A stretch of 64,000 nucleotides of DNA, taken from Candidatus Latescibacterota bacterium. Its GTDB lineage: Bacteria > Latescibacterota > UBA2968 > UBA8231. The translations under genes and the position numbers were made by a program. Below the pieces are notes generated by a model that did no database searches, was not told where the DNA came from, and saw only the letters and a list, made by a program, of their open reading frames with translations. The first letter of the stretch is position 1. Each line of letters starts with the position of its first letter. Below are positions 7,907 through 14,711 of this stretch, in pieces. The DNA is taken from assembly GCA_965217585.1 (NCBI GenBank), contig OZ244561.1, positions 5,824,001 to 5,888,000 on the forward strand, read 5' to 3'.

Positions 7907-10900
7907 TTACCTTAGCAGGGTAAATTTTTGGGCAAAACGGCCTTCAGGGGTTGTCAACCGATAGAGATAAACGCCGCTGGCCCAAGCCGAGGCGTCCATA
8001 GATATCGTGTGATAGCCAGCCGCTTGAAACCCTTCGTGCAGGACCGCCACTCGTTGTCCGTTAAGGGTGAAGACCTCCAGTCGAATATCAGAGGCGGTTG
8101 GCAACGTATAAGAAAGGATCGTCTCGCTGTTAAAGGGGTTGGGATAGCTCGGGTTGAGCGTCGTCGTGGCTGGTATGCCGGTGTCTTCTTCGACATTGAC
8201 CTCATATTGCTGCACGACCGCGTCTGTATCGTAGTCGATGAGCAGGATCTTTGTTCGCCCTGCTTGGCACGCTTTTACATGCAGGCTCCAGCCATCTCGG
8301 CGCCCCCTTGTGGGTCTATCGTTGCCTTCGGCTGGACAGTAGGCTCTGGAGGGCACCTGTTGGCCGCCGGCGATCTCTATGGCCGGATCGGAGCCGGACG
8401 GGTTGGCTCTCACCAGCACGCTGTCGAGGTTGGTGTGCACTGTAAATGTTTTCCACGCTGGATCGTCGGCATAGAATTCGACCTCAGACGGATCGGGCAC
8501 CAGCCATGCTTGGGGCTCGCTGGCCGAATCATTGTCGATGATTTTGATATTGATCCGAGCTTGGTGTCCACTCGACGAAGTAGCCTGCACCGCGAAGGCC
8601 CTATCCCCATCCGCCGTCGTGTTGTCCTTGGGCGTCAGGGTAAGCTGCGCCGTGCCCGTTCGCTGGCCTTTTGCAATGGTGAGGGTTTCTGGAAATGTCG
8701 CGTCGAAGTCCTCACCGCGCTTGGCTGTCTTGCCTTGTGTTGGAGAGACAAGGGCGAGTGTGATCGTCTCGTTAGCCGCCACGGCTTTGTCCAACGTCAC
8801 GGTCAGCGTGATGGTCGTTGCCTGCCCGTCGTCCTCGCGGACCGAATCATGGCTTGCGGATATACCCTCGAGCGCAACCGTGGCCGTTGGCTGCTCCTCG
8901 GACTCGGGTTGATCCTCGCCGGAGGCCTCGTCATCGGCTAGCTCGCCATCGTCCTCGCTATCAGCCACCTCGTCCTCGGAATCGGTGGTTGGCTGCTCCT
9001 CGGACTCGGGTTGATCCTCGCCGGAGGCCTCGTCATCGGCCAGTTCGCCATCTTCCTCGCCCGAAGCCTCTTCGCCGTCGGAATCGGTGGTCGCTCTTCC
9101 GATGGCGGTAAAGGTTTCGGGTTCAAGCCCCTCAACGGTAGCCGTAACGGTGTTGGTCCCCGGGTCGGCCCCCAGCGTCAGCGTGCTTTTGGCTCGGCCG
9201 TTGGCATCGGTGGTGGCGGTGGTGGACGACAGCGTCCCCCCGCCAGCGGTGACCGAAAAGCTGACGACCGCCCCGGCAAAGGCCGACCCGTTTTGATCTA
9301 ATACGGAAACGACGAATGGCTTGGCCAATGGCTCGCCGACCGTGCCTTCTTGTCCATCGCCGGAGACTTTCGTCAAGGTATGGGGCATGGCCTGCTCGAC
9401 GGTGGTTATCGTCTGCTCGACGGTCCACTCAGAAACATCCCATAGCCGAACCCTTTGATCGCTTGACCCGACGGCCAGAAGGGCCCCGTCGGGAGAAAAC
9501 GATACATCAGAGAGAAAGCCCGGATTCGCGAAGGTGGTGGCAAGCTGCCTGCTGGCCACGTCCCACAGCCGGACATGGCCCTTTGACCCGACGGCCAGCA
9601 GGGCCCCGTCGGGAGAAAACGACAGCGAACTGCCCCAACTCTCAGGCTGGAGGGTGACCTCTTGTCCGGTGGCTACGTCCCACAACTGATTGAAATCTCC
9701 TGAGGTGGCCAGCAGGGTGCCGTCGGGAGAAAACGATACATCAGAGATATAGATATAATCGCCCCTAGGCTGGAAGGTGTCGACTTTTTGCCTGCTGGCT
9801 ACATCCCACAGCGTGACCGCGTCCTTGTTCTCTCCTGCCGCCTCTGCGATGGCCAGCAGGGTGCCGTCGGGAGAAAACGACAGTGACCTGACCCAATCCG
9901 CTTGGAGGGTGGCGACCTGCTGTCTGCTCACCACGTCCCACAGTGAGACCGCGTTCTCTCCTGATCCCCCAATAGCCAGCAGGGTGCCATCGGGAGAAAA
10001 CGCCAACTTAAAATCCCAACTCCCAGGCTGGAGGGTGGCGACCTGCTCTCTGCTCGCTACGTCCCACAGCGAGACCTGCTCCTCTGCGATGGCCAGCAGG
10101 GCTCCGTCGGGAGAAAACGACAGCGCGGTGCTCCAATACTCAAGCTCAAGGGTGGCCACCTGCTGTCTGGTGGCTACGTCCCACAGCCGGACCGTAGGAA
10201 TAAGTTCCTCTGAGGTGGCTAGGAGGGTGCCGTCGGGAGAAAACGATGCCGATCTGATATACGCTGTATGGTCGAGGGTGGCGATGTGGTATGATGAAGC
10301 TTTCGAAAGCCCAATACTCGCGCCGTGGGTCACCTCCCCATCTGTATCAACTACCTGAATAGACAGGGAATGAACCTCAGGATCTGAAGGATCCCGACGA
10401 TAGGGGGGAATCGAGACATCATACTCGAATTCGACGATGGCGTCTTTTTCACCGTCCAATCCACGGCATGCTGCCAATCCTCCCAGTCCGGCGGCGCCGC
10501 TGCTTTCTTTTCTTTCCACGTCAATCAGGAGCACCTGATGAAGCCCTTCCGCATCGCTGACCTTGAATCGGACGGAGATGATGGTTGATCCGGCCGGATA
10601 GTCCGACGGCGAAATCATTTGGATGGTGGATGGGTCGCTGAGGGTTCCCCCTCCGAAGACACTACGACTGAGGCTCGTTTCTCCTCCAAGGGATATATCA
10701 GAATTAAAGTAGGGGTGCACGGACAAAAATTCGGCGGCGCACGCCGACAGTCGATCTGGGTTGCCGCCATACGACATGATGTAGGCATCGTCGCGGAAGT
10801 CGTGCCACAAGCCGAAAGTATGCCCAAGCTCATGGGCTATTGTGCTAAAGTGAAGGCTACTAGGAACCAACGTAATTCCGCCACGTTTGCCAAAATCATT

Positions 10901-11463
10901 ATTTACTCCTCCGGCCTTATAACCATCTACATCAATTGTGCCTGTACTATTGTCAATGACGATGAGGTAATCATTGGCCAAGACATCAAATTGAAGCGGA
11001 CCTTCGCCAAAGAATATCTCGTCAAGCACCTCTATAGTAGTGTTGTTATCATAGTGCCTATGGGATGCTGCCCATCGACTCGATGCACCAGCGGCTCGCC
11101 TTGGGCATCGGTTTCAATGCGGAAGGTTGTGTTGCCGTAGCCATGCGCTTGCATCTGCTCGGCATAAAAGGTCTGAACCCGGCGCATCATCGTTTTCATT
11201 TCATCAACCACTTCTTGACGATACGGACGGTCATTGGGCAAGAAATAGATCATCCGCACCGTGCGCTCCTCACCCACGTTCCGATCGGCCAGCCGCTTGC
11301 CAGCAGAGAGGGGGTGATCGCGCTGCCACCGCTCGTAATCGAACGGCAAGCAGAAATGCACGCTATCAGCCGGCGAGGGCGACGCATGGGCCACCGCCAG
11401 CGGCGAAAGAATCAGGCCGATTAACGCGCAAAGGGGGTACGATGTGAAGCAATACCGTTTCAT
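7907..11463 (-). pseudogene. Secreted Zn-metallopeptidase/WD40/Big-1/Calx-beta-like/T9SS-A-type CTD protein, frameshifted near 11061
   Basis: Signal peptide at 11463 with AGGAG RBS; HELGHTFGLWH zinc motif; about 7 SFSPDG WD40 repeats; YPNPFN...KFTLLR end. One added base after CAT CCC fuses the two ORFs (HP[D]RHYDNNTTIEVLDEI). Could be a sequencing error. Confidence 0.8.
8880..9060 (-). repeat. Duplicated acidic linker (EDDGELADDEASGEDQPESEEQPT x2)
   Basis: Near-identical DNA repeat ggctgctcctcggactcgggttgatcctcgccggaggcctcgtcatcggc occurs twice. Confidence 0.85.
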
Positions 11464-11854
11464 CAATCTTCTCCTTATAAGGTTGAGGATTTTACGCTGG
11501 CACATGAGGTGTGATGCAGATGAGAAAATGCCTTAGCGTGTTGAAGAGATAGTAATCGTGTGCAATTAGGCACAGAAAAGGCAGCAAGCGTTTGTAAATA
11601 AAGAACAAACGTGTATCGCAGGTCGCACAACAAGGGCGACCTCCGGCTGGGGCCACCGTACTAAGCGCTGTTTTATCAGATGTCGGGGTATGTACCATTG
11701 TCTATTTTCGGCCATGAACACACAAACGTTTGTGCTTGACAGCAGTATATATTAGGGCAATCAACCAAGATGTCAAATAAATAATTGACGTTACGCAGAC
11801 TTATGTAGTGTCTGCCGCCTTGCTGCCCTGCCTGTCGTCATTTGTATGTTGCAA

Positions 11855-12032
11855 AAGCCTTTCAGATTGGCCAATCTGAAAGGCCTGCGTGAGGGGCGCG
11901 TCGTCCGTCATTGGGTGAGCAGGCACGACAGTGCCCACGGCACCGTGCGGGAGTAAGACACCCCTCACGCTAGGTTGTCGCTCCGAACAGATACAGGGGC
12001 CTTGGGCCCGTATTACAAGTGTGGAGGACAGC
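11855..12032 (+). ncRNA. IS110 bridge RNA (left non-coding end)
   Basis: 5' palindrome 11857-11884; stem 11887-96/11961-70 enclosing CGTCATT and GCGGGA (target guides); second stem-loop enclosing ACAGATAC and TACAAGT (donor guides). Confidence 0.82.
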
Positions 12033-12059
12033 ACCCATTATAACAGGGAGGCTACCAGC

Positions 12060-13001
12060 ATGAAAGTCGTTGCCGGTATAGACGTAGGAAAAAGCAGTCT
12101 GGACGTGTCGGTGTCGGCGGGTCCGGTGCGTCGATTCGACAACGCCCCCGCGGGCCTTTCGGCCCTGGTGGGCTGGTTGGAGCGCGAGGGGGCGACCCAC
12201 GTGGTGTGTGAATCGACCGGGGGCTATGAGCGGGAAGTGGTGCGACGGTTGCGGAGCACGGCATGGTCGGTGCACATAGCGCACCCCAACCGAGTGCGCC
12301 ACTTCGCGCGGGCGGCTGGCCGCCAAGCCAAGACCGACGCGCTGGACGCGCAGATGCTGTCGCGGTATGGGCAGGTATTCGAGGTGCCTAGCTCGGTGGC
12401 GGCGGCGGCGGACAGTGAGGTCCTGCAAGACCTGCTGCGCCGACGCAAGCAGTTGGTGGACCAGCGCGTGCAGGAGCGCCATCGGCTGGACCAAGGACGG
12501 ACCGAAGCCGCCCGCACCTCTACCCAGCGGCACCTCCAGTGGCTGGATGAAGAGATCGGACGGTTGGAAGAGGAATACCGCAAGGCGTTGGAAAACAGCG
12601 GCGAGTTGTCCGAGTCCGCGGCCCTGTACCGGAGTGTGCCGGGCGTGGGCGAGCTGACCGCGGCCACGCTGGTAGTGTATCTGCCGGAGTTGGGGCAGTA
12701 CCGTGGAAAGGAGTTGACCTCGCTGGTGGGACTGGCCCCGTGGTCCAACGACAGTGGGCGCCAGCAGGGGTATCGCTCGATCCGGGGCGGACGGGGAACC
12801 GTGCGTAGGGTGTTGTACCTGGCCGCCTTGTCGGCGATACGCTACAACGACGACCTGAGCCGTTTCTATCAGGGACTGCGCCAGCGGGGCAAGACGGGCA
12901 AGGTGGCGGTGGTGGCGGTGATGCGCAAGCTGCTGCTGTTGCTGAACGCCATTGCCCATCGAGGAACGCCCTGGGTGGAACACCAGGCCCCAGCAGGGTA
13001 G
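12060..13001 (+). CDS. IS110-family recombinase (DEDD RuvC-like + Tnp domain)
   Basis: GIDVGK, CESTGGY, AKTDALDA, VPGVG, GLAPWSNDSG, VAVMRKLL; GGGAGG RBS. Confidence 0.95.
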   Translation: MKVVAGIDVGKSSLDVSVSAGPVRRFDNAPAGLSALVGWLEREGATHVVCESTGGYEREVVRRLRSTAWSVHIAHPNRVRHFARAAGRQAKTDALDAQMLSRYGQVFEVPSSVAAAADSEVLQDLLRRRKQLVDQRVQERHRLDQGRTEAARTSTQRHLQWLDEEIGRLEEEYRKALENSGELSESAALYRSVPGVGELTAATLVVYLPELGQYRGKELTSLVGLAPWSNDSGRQQGYRSIRGGRGTVRRVLYLAALSAIRYNDDLSRFYQGLRQRGKTGKVAVVAVMRKLLLLLNAIAHRGTPWVEHQAPAG

Positions 13002-13030
13002 AAAAGGGCTGGACGCAGAACACAGATACT

Positions 13031-13133
13031 CCCGCGAAAGAACGTCACCCCGTGCCCCGACACGGGGCGGGAATCCAGCCCAGCGCCCTAGCCTCAAACG
13101 GCCTTTCTGGATGCCTGCTTTCGCAGGCATGAC
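13031..13133. repeat. REP doublet (GTCATTCCCGCGAAAG...CGGGAATCCAG and inverted CTGGATGCCTGCTTTCGCAGGCATGAC)
   Basis: Palindromic REP-like units in inverted orientation, with an extra CCCCGTG-CCCCGA-CACGGGG hairpin inside the first unit. Confidence 0.75.
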
Positions 13134-13328
13134 ACCGGGACCGCACAGGCACCAAGCGGGCGGAAGAGGCTGCCCTAAGAAGACAGAGGCTGCGTAACAT
13201 CAGTCAATAATTTTTCGCTGGAGTCCAATTTCTGAAAATTCGAGGGCGAGACGCCCTCAATCCCAGATGCTTTGATGAAACGCGGCGGCAACAATCCTCT
13301 TCACTTGGGCTTTACCCAGTTTCGGCTC

Positions 13329-13384
13329 CTACACGCAGGTTTGCGGCGGCCCGTTAGCTTGAGCGCCGTGCGGACCAGCGGGGC
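13329..13384 (-). repeat. Internally deleted duplicate of the argE-like 3' region
   Basis: 13338-13384 is identical to 15931-15977 (47 bp) and is fused to CTACACGCAG, the last 10 bp of the gene including the stop. Confidence 0.9.
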
Positions 13385-13732
13385 CTTTATCTGCGTGCCG
13401 GGGTTCCACCAGCGCTTAGAGGCGTGGCTCGACGCACTGCCGGAGGGGCCAATCCCCGCGAGCAAGACCTGCTGGCTTTGGGAGCGCATCACATCGGTGC
13501 CGAAGCGGGCGACTTGGTTATCTGGCGCACTACCCTGCCGCGCGTGGCGCAGTACATCACCATGAGTCCAGCAGGCGAGGGTGAAGAGGCGCGGCGGTTG
13601 CGCACGGACTTTTGGCAGCGGCGGTTGTCTGGGTTAGGGCGCTACGCTGAGGAACGCGAGTACTACGAAGAAAAGACGGCTGAGTTGACGAGTGTGGGGC
13701 GGAAGCTGGCTGGGGTGGATCCTTGGGATTGA
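13380..13732 (+). pseudogene. PhyH-like dioxygenase 3' fragment
   Basis: GAFICVPGFH...(frameshift)...AGDLVIWRTTLP...RVAQYITM...GRKLAGVDPWD*; no N-terminus. Confidence 0.65.
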
Positions 13733-13851: not shown

Positions 13852-14711
13852 GAAGCTGTTGAGTTAAAAACGTATCTTTGTAAGTTATTTGGTACCATAG
13901 CCCTATTGCTGTAGGAGGATTCTGTTATGCCAGGGTATCCAAGTGACTTGACGGATGAAGAATGGGCGTTGATCGCCCCTTTTTTTGACCGCCCCGATCC
14001 TCGGGGTAATCCGGGTCGGTATGAAAAACGCGATGTGGTCAATGCCATTTTGTATGTGCTCAAAGGGGGCATCCCGTGGCGGATGATGCCGCTTGATTTT
14101 CCGCCTTGGGATACGGTCTATGATCATTTTCGTCGCTGGAATAAACGCGGCGTGTGGGAGCAAGCCTTGGACTTTCTCAATGAGCAAGCGCGCCTAAAGC
14201 AAGGCAAGAAGCCACAGCCCACCTATGCGCTTTTGGATTCGCAATCGGTCAAAACGCAGTATGCTAGTCAGGATCGAGGCACCGATGGGGGAAAAAAAGG
14301 TCAAAGGCCGTAAACGCCACCTCGCCACCGATACGCTGGGCAATATGCTCGCGATCCAAGTACATGCAGCCAATGTAGCCGATACCAGCCAAGGCTGGGA
14401 AGTGTGTGATCGCGTCGCAGAAAAGTATGATTCGGTCGAAGCCTTCTGCGGCGACCAAGGCTATCGCGGCACTACGGTTGAATTCGTCGAGAACCTGCTG
14501 GGGTTACGACTCGACATCACCTCGAAACCAGCGCAAGGATTCCAAGTGATTCCCAAACGGTGGATTATCGAACGAACCTTTGCTTGGTTGGGTGGATTTC
14601 GGCGCTTGGCCAAGGACTTTGAAATCCTCACCCAATCTGCAGAAAATATGATCCGGATTGCCATGATTAAAATTACCGTCGCTAAATGCATCTGAATAAC
14701 TCAACAGCTTC
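13852..14711 (+). mobile_element. IS5-family element (two-ORF type)
   Basis: Perfect TIR GAAGCTGTTGAGTTA / TAACTCAACAGCTTC with TA target duplication. Confidence 0.92.
13927..14695 (+). CDS. IS5 transposase expressed by -1 frameshift
   Basis: YPSDLTDEEW...DSQSVK and KVKGRKRH...DQGY...RWIIERTFAWL; GGGGGAAAAAAAGG slippery site near 14290. Confidence 0.9.

What the first reader, a model, noticed from the sequence alone, without database searches (positions are those of the whole stretch)
11835..13040. IS110 bridge RNA with all four guides readable, programmed against a REP
The reconstructed target is TCGTCA-TT-CCCGCG and the donor junction is ACAGATA-CT-TGTAT. In the left non-coding end, one loop carries CGTCATT (11906-12) and GCGGGA (11947-52, complement of TCCCGC). 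A second loop carries ACAGATAC (11987-94) and TACAAGT (12014-20, complement of ACTTGTA). This matches the IS621 bridge-RNA architecture. The target core (TT) and donor core (CT) differ at the first base, so only one T is shared. This would be a natural core-mismatch variant of a compact 313-aa recombinase, of interest for genome-editing tools.
Basis: partly seen in the sequence, partly recalled or inferred. Interest (0 to 1): 0.75.

Follow-up and report, generated by a model that had tools for sequence, protein, structure and literature searches.

The report
IS110 element with readable bridge RNA
This is an intact IS110-type jumping gene whose guide RNA is set to insert into a short palindromic repeat; it is an ordinary member of a known family, except that its target and its own joined ends share one base instead of the usual two.

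Summary
Window 11843-13030 is an intact 1,188-bp IS110-group insertion sequence. It has a 217-nt left end, a 313-aa RNA-guided recombinase (12060-13001) with the IS621 catalytic residues, and a 29-nt right end. An identical second copy and three empty paralogous sites fix the ends.

The left end folds like the IS621 bridge RNA: a 5' hairpin and two stem-loops with internal loops. 17 pairs show compensatory changes across 13 relatives. All four guides sit where the published model puts them.

Guides covary with targets in relatives. The RTG change GCGGG to GCCGG goes with CCCGC to CCGGC. An LTG change CGTCATT to CGTGGAT goes with flanks ending GTGGAT.

The target is a real REP-like hairpin family, with 36 members here and 90-505 12-mer target sites in five relatives' genomes.

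The position-8 difference is systematic. Left junctions read TT in 29 of 32 and never CT. Right junctions read CT in 29 of 29. It fits top-strand exchange after T9. A G in RTG and RDG can pair C8 and wobble with T8.

This is a new member of a known kind with a modest rule variant. Transcription and activity are not shown.

The parts
11834..11842 (+). Left target, positions 1-9 (GTCGTCA-TT). This is the left half of a REP-like hairpin. T8 and T9 are 11841-11842.
   Evidence: Empty site L003 and the second copy; junction census.
11843..13030 (+). IS110-group insertion sequence, 1,188 bp. The CT at 13029-13030 is counted with the right end.
   Evidence: Identical second copy over 1188 of 1188 bases; empty sites; relatives share the same ends.
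11845..11850 (+). -10 hexamer TATGTT of the composite promoter that would form at the circle junction.
   Evidence: 17-nt spacing to the right-end -35 in 11 of 11 elements scored. No + strand promoter is found in the linear context. This is a consensus match only.
11857..11884 (+). 5' stem-loop of the bridge RNA (a perfect 28-nt palindrome).
   Evidence: MFE fold; 4 of its 6 scored pairs have compensatory changes; self-hit on the minus strand.
11889..11968 (+). Target-binding stem-loop. Outer stem 11889-11896 with 11961-11968. Inner stem-loop 11914-11944. Between them is the internal loop that carries LTG and RTG.
   Evidence: 4 of 8 outer pairs and 8 of 12 inner pairs have compensatory changes.
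11906..11912 (+). Left target guide (LTG), CGUCAUU. It equals target top-strand positions 3-9, so it would pair with the bottom strand. The nominal 9-nt guide is 11904-11912, and positions 1-2 do not match either local target.
   Evidence: In a Chloroflexota genome the 9-nt guide matches 5 of 6 flanks at 9 of 9 positions.
11947..11955 (+). Right target guide plus handshake guide, GCGGG-AG-UA. 11947-11951 pairs with target positions 10-14 (CCCGC). 11952-11953 pairs with positions 9 and 8. 11954-11955 pairs with donor positions A7 and T6. The whole 9-mer is the exact complement of the right junction TACT|CCCGC.
   Evidence: The handshake model is from PMC11208158. GGAGTA is invariant in 13 of 13 relatives.
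11977..12029 (+). Donor-binding stem-loop. Outer stem 11977-11984 with 12023-12029. Inner hairpin 11997-12009.
   Evidence: The outer-stem pairs are invariant, so they give no covariation evidence either way.
11987..11994 (+). Left donor guide (LDG), ACAGAUAC. It equals donor top-strand positions 1-8 at the right end.
12014..12021 (+). Right donor guide plus handshake guide, UACA-AG-UG. It is complementary to donor A7-C8-T9-TGTA. It is also complementary to the left junction CA-TT-TGTA if G pairs with T8 as a wobble.
   Evidence: Model.
12060..13001 (+). Recombinase gene, 313 aa plus stop. A Shine-Dalgarno-like AGGGAGG lies at 12045-12051.
   Evidence: D8, E51, D93, D96 and S232 align with IS621 D11, E60, D102, D105 and S241.
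13010..13015 (+). -35 hexamer of the junction promoter, TGGACG here. The 10 relatives scored have TTGAC plus one variable base.
13022..13030 (+). Left donor positions 1-9, ACAGATA-CT. C8 and T9 are 13029-13030.
13031..13078 (+). Right target (CCCGC, 13031-13035) and the rest of the REP-like hairpin. Here the hairpin carries a 27-nt insertion in its loop (13041-13067).
   Evidence: An unoccupied repeat with the same loop insertion exists elsewhere in the genome.

Best explanation
Window 11843-13030 is an intact IS110-group insertion sequence. It encodes a DEDD/serine RNA-guided recombinase and, in its 217-nt left end, a bridge RNA built like that of IS621.

The first internal loop reads the insertion site, a REP-like hairpin. 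[quoted passage not shown] The second loop reads the element's own joined ends, ACAGATA-CT-TGTA, through the LDG (11987-94) and the RDG (12014-20).

By analogy with IS621, both top strands are cut after T9 and swapped. That gives a left junction target(1-9)+TGTAT and a right junction donor(1-9)+CCCGC.

Position 8 differs: T in the target and C in the donor. Each 5' guide reads its own position 8 by Watson-Crick pairing (U in the LTG, C in the LDG). Both 3' guides carry a G that pairs with C8 and can wobble with T8. After exchange the RTG plus its handshake bases (GCGGGAGUA) is perfectly complementary to the new right junction.

Shown here: element ends, homology, fold covariation, guide complementarity, guide-target covariation and the junction census. 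Inferred: transcription, wobble pairing, order of strand exchange and present activity.
For: Ends: there is an identical second copy and there are three empty sites.

Protein.

Fold: z = -4.1 with 0 of 200 shuffles folding as well. 17 of 37 pairs have changes on both sides against 9.7 +/- 1.6 in shuffles (0 of 500), and 4-7 pairs in the slid controls.

Covariance model: it finds exactly the two copies in the 7.3-Mb genome at E 4e-27. It also hits the same position upstream of the gene in more distant relatives, at E 0.0019 to 0.08.

Guides against chance.

RTG covariation: genomes with RTG GCCGG have right targets CCGGC in 7 of 10 and CCAGC in 3 of 10. Genomes with GCGGG have CCCGC in 18 of 19.

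LTG covariation: in one MAG, two full-length copies carry LTG CGTGGAT and a truncated third carries a decayed version (CGTGGTT). Three left flanks there end GTGGAT(T).

Junction census: positions 8-9 at the left junction are TT 29, AT 2, TC 1 and CT 0, of 32 junctions in 9 genomes. The right junction is CT in 29 of 29.

Site preference: in two Chloroflexota genomes CT-version sites are common (89 and 49, against 178 and 90 TT sites). All 10 insertions there are at TT sites, as the LTG's U predicts.

[quoted passage not shown] Top-strand-dominated integration comes from passages of two preprints.
Against: No transcript start, RNA-protein binding or recombination is shown. RNA-library contigs cover 11857-12091, but contigs cannot show transcription.

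Rfam has no match.

The local LTG matches only 7 of 9 target positions at both insertions. 12 free 12-mer targets, 2 of them with the full 14-nt match, are unoccupied. The -35 here is TGGACG, 8 of 12 consensus matches against 9-10 in relatives.

Imperfect fits in relatives:
- The Binatia LTG has A at position 9.
- Several LDGs differ from the donor at position 3.
- 3 of 4 insertions in one genome have a C-A mismatch to the RTG.
- The handshake bases of the RKRN MAG copies do not fit their targets.

The guide covariation rests on few independent events, about one lineage each.

The right-junction count was made with a pattern that contained CT. However, no full-length locus lacked that pattern.
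Confidence: 0.85

Rival explanations
1. Canonical two-base core with a tolerated heteroduplex. Both strands are exchanged around positions 8-9. The T/C difference leaves a mismatch at each junction. Replication or repair then resolves it at random, so the TT-left/CT-right pattern in this window is one of two equally likely outcomes.
For: Hiraizumi et al. allow that mismatched nucleotides are repaired after bottom-strand exchange (PMC11208158 discussion passage). Two copies alone could not exclude chance.
Against: 0 of 32 left junctions in 9 genomes read CT and 29 of 29 right junctions read CT. Random resolution would give roughly half of each.
Confidence: 0.03
2. The junction asymmetry needs no wobble pairing. 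Only the top strand is ever transferred (copy-out-paste-in) and the bottom strand is filled in by the host. Any target with T9 could then be joined to the donor, and the G opposite position 8 would just be inherited from CT/CT ancestors.
For: Passages of two preprints report single-strand, top-strand-dominated excision and integration for CazIS110 and IS621. The distant relative L049/L050 has CT in both target and donor and the same G. Two insertions sit at A8 sites, where G cannot pair.
Against: This does not conflict with the main reading on what the element is. It differs only on whether the G-T8 pair contributes. The LTG position-8 base tracks the target (U with T8, A with A8). All 10 insertions avoid the abundant C8 sites. 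So position 8 is read at least by the LTG.
Confidence: 0.3
3. The element is a recently acquired, now weakly active or inactive passenger in this genome. The guides are relics tuned to the repeats of another host.
For: There are only 2 copies while 12 free 12-mer targets exist, 2 of them with the full 14-nt match. The LTG matches 7 of 9 positions here but 9 of 9 in a Chloroflexota genome. The -35 hexamer is weaker than in all 10 relatives scored. Relatives occur in four groups of MAGs at 59-83% protein identity, which suggests horizontal spread.
Against: The two copies are identical over 1,188 bp at different sites. The reading frame and catalytic residues are intact. That speaks for a recent transposition.
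Confidence: 0.2
4. The matching strings are protein-binding subterminal repeats, or by-products of the palindromic target, and not RNA guides.
For: The target is a palindrome. RNAalifold pairs part of the LTG with part of the RTG.
Against: The RTG change in Chloroflexota breaks that intramolecular pair (C-C in 2 of 13 sequences) but matches the DNA target. The strings sit in the internal loops of a covarying fold that corresponds to the IS621 bridge RNA. The polarity is exactly as published.
Confidence: 0.02

Closest known systems
IS621 of Escherichia coli (bridge recombinase and bridge RNA; PDB 8WT6)
   Same: Same protein family, E 1.5e-35, with all five catalytic residues aligned. The left end is long (217 nt) and the right end short (29 nt). 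The RNA has a 5' hairpin plus a target-binding and a donor-binding stem-loop. The guide polarity is the same. Handshake bases follow the core-pairing bases. The donor is nearly the same (ACAGATA-CT-TGTAT here; ACAGTAT.CT.TGTAT for IS621). The target is REP-like. A -35/-10 promoter is split across the circle junction.
   Different: Target position 8 is T while donor position 8 is C; IS621 has CT in both. Position 7 is A in both target and donor; in IS621 positions 6-7 differ, and a preprint's design rule advises against a matching position 7. The protein is 313 aa against a 328-residue IS621 chain. The host is an uncultured bacterium.
ISCro4 / IS622 (PDB 9T56)
   Same: Best solved-structure match, E 4.5e-40, aligned over residues 5-305.
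   Different: In the passages read, it is used with identical CT or GT cores in target and donor. No natural non-identical core is described there.
ISPpu10 and ISPpu9 of Pseudomonas putida
   Same: IS110-family elements that insert into REP hairpins. For ISPpu10, wobble pairs are tolerated at guide-target interfaces (preprint passages; the ISPpu9 abstract was seen in the listing).
   Different: The ISPpu10 wobble is reported at LTG-LT and at RTG position 3, not at the core. Its core is CT. Whether the hairpin shape of the target also matters here was not tested.
CazIS110-1 (Caloranaerobacter azorensis)
   Same: Its top-strand-dominated copy-out-paste-in model predicts exactly the junction pattern seen here.
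   Different: No sequence comparison was made here. Its core is not described in the passages I read.

Membership tests
IS110 family, IS110 group (bridge-RNA-guided recombinase elements) | Recombinase with an N-terminal DEDD RuvC-like domain and a C-terminal Tnp domain carrying the catalytic serine | tested here: met
   PF01548 at 77.6 bits and PF02371 at 58.1 bits. NF033542 'IS110 family RNA-guided transposase' at 202.4 bits against a cut-off of 140. D8, E51, D93, D96 and S232 align with IS621 D11, E60, D102, D105 and S241. The chain numbering is offset by 2, which is my reading of the alignment.
IS110 family, IS110 group (bridge-RNA-guided recombinase elements) | Long non-coding left end and short right end, with the RNA encoded in the left end | tested here: met
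   The left end is 217 nt (11843-12059) and the right end is 29 nt (13002-13030). The criterion is from PMC11208160 section 12.
IS110 family, IS110 group (bridge-RNA-guided recombinase elements) | [quoted passage not shown] | tested here: met
   94.1% of cells are paired. 17 pairs have changes on both sides, and 0 of 500 shuffles reach that number.
IS110 family, IS110 group (bridge-RNA-guided recombinase elements) | [quoted passage not shown] The 3' side complements the top strand (4-7 nt) of the target and of the donor respectively. | tested here: met
   LTG 7 nt (9 in relatives). RTG 5 nt plus 2 core-pairing and 2 handshake bases. LDG 8 nt. RDG 4 nt plus 2 plus 2.
IS110 family, IS110 group (bridge-RNA-guided recombinase elements) | Guides covary with natural targets across orthologues | tested here: met
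   RTG GCGGG/GCCGG goes with CCCGC/CCGGC. LTG CGTCATT/CGTGGAT goes with flanks CGTCATT/GTGGAT. The independent events are few.
IS110 family, IS110 group (bridge-RNA-guided recombinase elements) | The same core dinucleotide in target and donor, hence at both ends of the element | tested here: not met
   T9 is shared but position 8 is not. The left junction is TT in 29 of 32 and the right junction is CT in 29 of 29. The empty site read (L003) has TT. I keep the element in the family because every other feature is met and the literature says the first core base is less conserved.
IS110 family, IS110 group (bridge-RNA-guided recombinase elements) | Promoter reconstituted across the circle junction | tested here: inconclusive
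   The -35 lies in the right end and the -10 in the left end, 17 nt apart, in 11 of 11 elements. The match is 8 of 12 here and 9-10 of 12 in relatives. This is a consensus match only. No circle junction was seen in contigs.
IS110 family, IS110 group (bridge-RNA-guided recombinase elements) | RNA is made, binds the recombinase and is required for recombination | not testable with these tools
   RNA-library contigs cover the left end but cannot show transcription.
REP (repetitive extragenic palindromic) elements | A short imperfect palindrome present in many copies, with compensatory stem variants | tested here: met
   There are 12 exact 27-mers and 36 family members with paired stem variants (TCCCGC/GCGGGA, GCCTGC/GCAGGC, TCCTGC/GCAGGA, TCCGGC/GCCGGA) in this genome. 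Five relatives' genomes hold 90-505 copies of the 12-mer target, against 0-1 per strand for the reversed control.
REP (repetitive extragenic palindromic) elements | Associated RAYT (Y1 transposase) flanked by the repeats | tested here: not met
   No PF01797 match in this genome, which is 94.6% complete. 4 of 5 relatives' genomes have matches. One match in the Binatia genome has two inverted copies of the repeat about 110-210 nt upstream. Hence I write 'REP-like' for this genome.
REP (repetitive extragenic palindromic) elements | Extragenic location | not tested
   Only the two occupied sites and one empty site were read. All lie between open reading frames.

The most novel reading that the evidence does not exclude
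In this clade the sequence that target and donor must share has shrunk to the single T9, plus an incidental A7. Position 8 has been recruited as an extra handshake position.

The two 5' guides tell T8 (target) from C8 (donor). The wobble-capable G in the RTG accepts T8 before exchange and gains a full Watson-Crick pair with the incoming C8 afterwards. This gives a built-in push towards insertion.

If so, bridge recombinases can be programmed to join sites with non-identical 'cores'. The published design rules (identical core, non-matching position 7) would then be narrower than what nature uses.
Probability: 0.35. Interest if true: 0.6.

Novelty: new member of a known kind. Interest (0 to 1): 0.4.

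Why it matters
Bridge recombinases are being developed as programmable tools for inserting, excising and inverting DNA. In the passages I read, design rules ask for the same core dinucleotide in target and donor.

This natural clade has 32 insertions in 9 genomes of four groups of uncultured bacteria. It consistently joins a T8 target to a C8 donor. It also avoids abundant C8 sites.

That suggests only T9 needs to be shared and that position 8 is read separately on each DNA. If an assay confirms this, the set of site pairs that can be joined would widen somewhat. It would also offer a natural case for studying what drives strand exchange forward.

For genome annotation the locus is an ordinary IS110 element in a REP-like repeat.

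Tried and rejected
Rfam 15 with permissive thresholds over 11500-13400 gave no match. I take this as showing only that none of its families matched.

Reads: all four runs were contigs. No joint such as a circle junction was listed. Several contigs start at 11857, but that is the first base of a perfect 28-nt palindrome. One non-RNA-labelled run starts there too. I therefore do not read it as a transcript start. Parts without cover are not evidence of anything.

A promoter scan of the linear locus found no + strand site.

A RAYT search in the own genome was negative.

The simple pairwise boundary finder failed for L045/L060 and L056/L057, so those elements were not used. The weak model hits in L043, L040, L041 and L063 (E 0.03-0.6) were not analysed further.

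The random-resolution heteroduplex model was rejected on the junction census.

A search for papers on non-identical cores found nothing relevant. The terms 'bridge RNA' + 'core dinucleotide' + 'wobble' gave one paper, whose wobbles are not at the core. IS110 combined with five phrases for mismatched cores gave only a Methods sentence on the two bases next to the core. Durrant et al.'s Supplementary Data 1-2 (target and donor pairs of thousands of elements) may already contain such cases.

No structure or complex prediction was run, because the family assignment did not need it.
Full report
WHAT IS THERE.

Window 11843-13030 (+ strand) is a 1,188-bp element. Its left junction reads ...GTCGTCATT|TGTATGTTGC... 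and its right junction reads ...AACACAGATACT|CCCGCGAAAG....

A search of the window's own 7.3-Mb genome found a second copy. It is identical over all 1,188 bases and lies between ...GTGACGTCATT| and |CCCGCGAAAGCGGGAATCC.

The same search found three paralogous sites that match both flanks of the window's copy but lack the element. The one read directly, L003, reads ...CCTGTCGTCATT|CCCGCGAAAGCGGGAATCCAG. The exact 27-mer repeat lies at all three.

So the ends are fixed. The pre-insertion target is ...CGTCA-TT-CCCGC.... Only one base, a T, is common to the target and to the joined ends ACAGATA-CT-TGTAT.

THE PROTEIN.

The frame 12060-13001 gives 313 aa behind an AGGGAGG ribosome-binding site.
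- It carries Pfam DEDD_Tnp_IS110 and Transposase_20.
- It passes NCBIfam NF033542, 'IS110 family RNA-guided transposase', at 202 bits against a cut-off of 140.
- It aligns over residues 5-305 with the solved ISCro4 (E 4.5e-40) and IS621 (E 1.5e-35) recombinases.
- D8, E51, D93, D96 and S232 stand opposite the IS621 catalytic residues D11, E60, D102, D105 and S241. The two-residue offset of the chain numbering is my reading of the alignment.

These two copies are the only IS110-type genes in the genome.

THE RNA.

The 217-nt left end folds at -94.2 kcal/mol. The z-score is -4.1, and 0 of 200 shuffles fold as well. The fold has a 5' hairpin (11857-11884) and two stem-loops with internal loops.

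The search for related loci returned 49 loci. About 30 of them belong to a close clade with 54-83% protein identity and the same end sequences. They come from MAGs labelled Latescibacterota, Chloroflexota, Dehalococcoidia and Binatia. Four further copies in one of those MAGs were added.

I aligned 13 distinct left ends. On a structure without any LTG-RTG pairing:
- 94.1% of cells pair.
- 17 of 37 pairs show changes on both sides.
- Shuffles give 9.7 +/- 1.6 such pairs, and 0 of 500 reach 17.
- Slid controls give 4-7.

The compensatory changes lie in the 5' hairpin, the outer stem of the first loop and its inner stem. The stems of the second loop never vary, so they say nothing either way.

I built a covariance model of the two loops.
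- It finds only the two copies in the own genome, at E 4e-27.
- It finds weaker matches at the same place upstream of the gene in more distant relatives: L049/L050 at E 0.0019, and three more loci (L043, L040, L041) at E 0.03-0.08.

Rfam has no matching family.

THE GUIDES.

Durrant et al. (PMC11208160, sections 6, 7 and 12 read) state three points.
- The 3' side pairs with the top strand over 4-7 nt.
- The core is included in all four pairings.

Here the guides are as follows.
- First loop, 5' side: CGUCAUU (11906-12). It equals target top-strand positions 3-9.
- First loop, 3' side: GCGGG (11947-51). It complements target positions 10-14.
- Second loop, 5' side: ACAGAUAC (11987-94). It equals donor positions 1-8.
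- Second loop, 3' side: UACAAG (12014-19). It complements donor positions 8-13.

A simple score of these four matches is 27, in the right order. The null is 18.6 +/- 1.6. 2 of 20,000 shuffles and 0 of 20,000 genome windows reach 27.

Hiraizumi et al. (PMC11208158, passages) add that two 'handshake' bases follow the core-pairing bases of the RTG and the RDG. These pair with positions 7 and 6 of the incoming strand after exchange.
- Here the RTG continues AG-UA. GCGGGAGUA (11947-55) is therefore the exact complement of the right junction TACT|CCCGC.
- The RDG continues AG-UG. UACAAGUG (12014-21) complements the left junction CA-TT-TGTA with one G-T8 wobble.

GUIDES FOLLOW TARGETS IN RELATIVES.

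RTG:
- The two Chloroflexota genomes carry RTG GCCGG. Their right targets are CCGGC in 7 of 10, CCAGC in 3 of 10 and CCCGC in none.
- All other genomes carry GCGGG. Their right targets are CCCGC in 18 of 19.
- This RTG change breaks the intramolecular LTG-RTG pair that RNAalifold had drawn (C-C in 2 of 13 sequences). The base therefore tracks the DNA, not the fold.

LTG:
- In one Latescibacterota MAG, two full-length copies carry LTG CGTGGAT instead of CGTCATT, and a truncated third copy carries a decayed version (CGTGGTT).
- Three left flanks in that MAG end GTGGAT(T).
- One copy with each full-length guide sits at the other guide's kind of site. This would fit RNA acting in trans on sibling circles, because the donor ends are identical.
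- In one Chloroflexota genome the full 9-nt LTG matches 5 of 6 flanks at 9 of 9 positions. In the window's genome it matches 7 of 9 at both sites.

A more distant pair, L049/L050, has CT in both target and donor, and guides that fit at the model-aligned positions.

THE TARGET IS A REP-LIKE REPEAT.

In the window's own genome:
- The 27-mer GTCATTCCCGCGAAAGCGGGAATCCAG occurs 12 times exactly.
- A looser pattern finds 36 hairpins. Their stem variants change on both arms together.

In other genomes and as free sites:
- Five relatives' genomes hold 90-505 copies of the 12-mer target. The reversed control gives 0-1 per strand.
- The window's genome has 12 free 12-mer targets, 2 of them with the full 14-nt match.

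No RAYT-type gene was found in the window's genome, so I call the repeat REP-like.

The window's own site is a variant of the repeat with a 27-nt hairpin inserted in its loop (13041-13067). An unoccupied copy of that variant exists elsewhere in the genome.

POSITION 8.

The census covers 32 left junctions in 9 genomes.
- Positions 8-9 at the left junction are TT in 29, AT in 2, TC in 1 and CT in none.
- All 29 right junctions read CT.
- The right-end search pattern contained CT. However, no full-length locus lacked the pattern; only three truncated copies did.

Random resolution of a heteroduplex is therefore excluded.

In the IS621 structures the top strands are cut after T9. The bottom strands are cut between 9* and 10*. 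By the paper's own numbering (G7* opposite C8) that lies between top positions 5 and 6. The overlap is thus positions 6-9, and IS621's target and donor already differ at positions 6-7. Natural junctions follow the top strand.

The clade here extends the difference to position 8.
- The target is C6 A7 T8 T9.
- The donor is T6 A7 C8 T9.

Two preprints report that integration is dominated by the top strand (passages). That predicts the same junction pattern.

The guides fit this picture.
- The LTG has U opposite the target's A8* on the bottom strand.
- The LDG has C opposite the donor's G8* on the bottom strand.
- The RTG and the RDG both have G, which pairs with C8 and can wobble with T8.

The LTG position-8 base follows the target across the 13 left ends. 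It is U in 10, A in the 2 whose guide variant matches A8 sites, and C in one truncated copy.

In the two Chloroflexota genomes a C8 version of the site is common: 89 and 49 copies, against 178 and 90 T8 sites. All 10 insertions there are at T8 sites. If position 8 did not matter, the chance of that would be about (2/3)^10 = 0.02. This rough figure assumes independent insertions and equal access to sites.

WHAT IS KNOWN.

- Durrant et al. changed the core to AT, GT or TT in target, donor and guides together (section 10 passage). Their natural-target analysis kept only guides with a CT core (Methods passage).
- Hiraizumi et al. note that the first core base is less conserved.
- Two literature searches found no description of naturally non-identical cores. 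Supplements were closed and may hold such cases.

WEAK POINTS.

- Nothing here shows the RNA is made. RNA-library contigs labelled sponge metagenome cover 11857-12091 at 95-99% likeness, but contigs cannot show transcription, and no circle junction was seen.
- The junction promoter is a consensus match only. The -35 lies in the right end and the -10 in the left end, 17 nt apart, in 11 of 11 elements. It is weaker here (TGGACG, 8 of 12 matches) than in relatives (9-10 of 12).
- Several relatives show imperfect guide fits.
- The covariation events are few.

VERDICT.

The locus is a new member of the IS110 bridge-RNA family, in an uncultured bacterium. Position 8 differs consistently between target and donor. 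In the papers and passages I read, this is not described.

Noticed in passing
window 13041-13067: A 27-nt GC-rich hairpin (AACGTCACCCCGTGCCCCGACACGGGG) sits inside the loop of the REP-like repeat. There are 3 copies in this genome, one of them in an unoccupied repeat. Near-identical insertions lie in the right flanks of relatives in a Dehalococcoidia MAG and a Latescibacterota MAG (L029, L030, L042, L052, L068). It scores as terminator-like on the minus strand. It may be a second small mobile or nested repeat.
   Followed up: partly
window 11780-11842 and 13067-13180; L003, L004, L005: The element sits in a larger repeated intergenic module. The flanks on both sides recur together at three other places in the genome without the element. 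The module holds a second repeat subfamily, GTCATGCCTGCGAAAGCAGGCATCC, on the minus strand at about 13112-13136.
   Followed up: partly
G002-G006 (genomes of L023, L031, L029, L018, L019): The same REP-like target 12-mer is abundant (90-505 copies) in MAGs labelled Chloroflexota, Dehalococcoidia, Binatia and Latescibacterota. So both the repeat and the IS that targets it are shared across distant groups. In the Binatia genome a Y1-transposase (PF01797) match has two inverted copies of the repeat about 110-210 nt upstream (L075 1289 and 1366; gene from 1501).
   Followed up: partly
L066, L067, L068, L069 (one Latescibacterota MAG): Two guide variants (LTG CGTCATT and CGTGGAT) and two kinds of site coexist. 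One copy with each guide sits at the other guide's kind of site. This suggests bridge RNAs act in trans on sibling copies. L068's right target CTCGT differs from CCCGC by two C-to-T changes that the RTG could still wobble-pair. L069 is internally deleted.
   Followed up: partly
L029 left junction: One Dehalococcoidia copy has ...CGTCATC|TGTATG, that is C instead of T at position 9 of the left junction. The other three copies in that genome have T.
   Followed up: no
window 13927-14695 (+): A second, unrelated insertion sequence gene lies about 900 bp downstream. It is an IS4/IS5-family transposase in two overlapping frames, DUF4096 (13927-14313) and DDE_Tnp_1 (14225-14695). This is probably a programmed frameshift or a broken gene.
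   Followed up: partly
window 7907-11029 (-) and 11032-11505 (-): Upstream lie a 1,040-aa WD40-repeat protein with a bacterial Ig-like domain and a 157-aa fragment with a weak metallopeptidase match. The two frames abut, so together they may be one gene or a split gene.
   Followed up: no
runs X1 and X5, loose ends at window 13028: Contigs in two runs not labelled as RNA read ...CTCGTC followed by ACTCCCGCG. That is an unoccupied repeat with C at position 8. The own genome has 2 such 12-mers against 12 with T.
   Followed up: no
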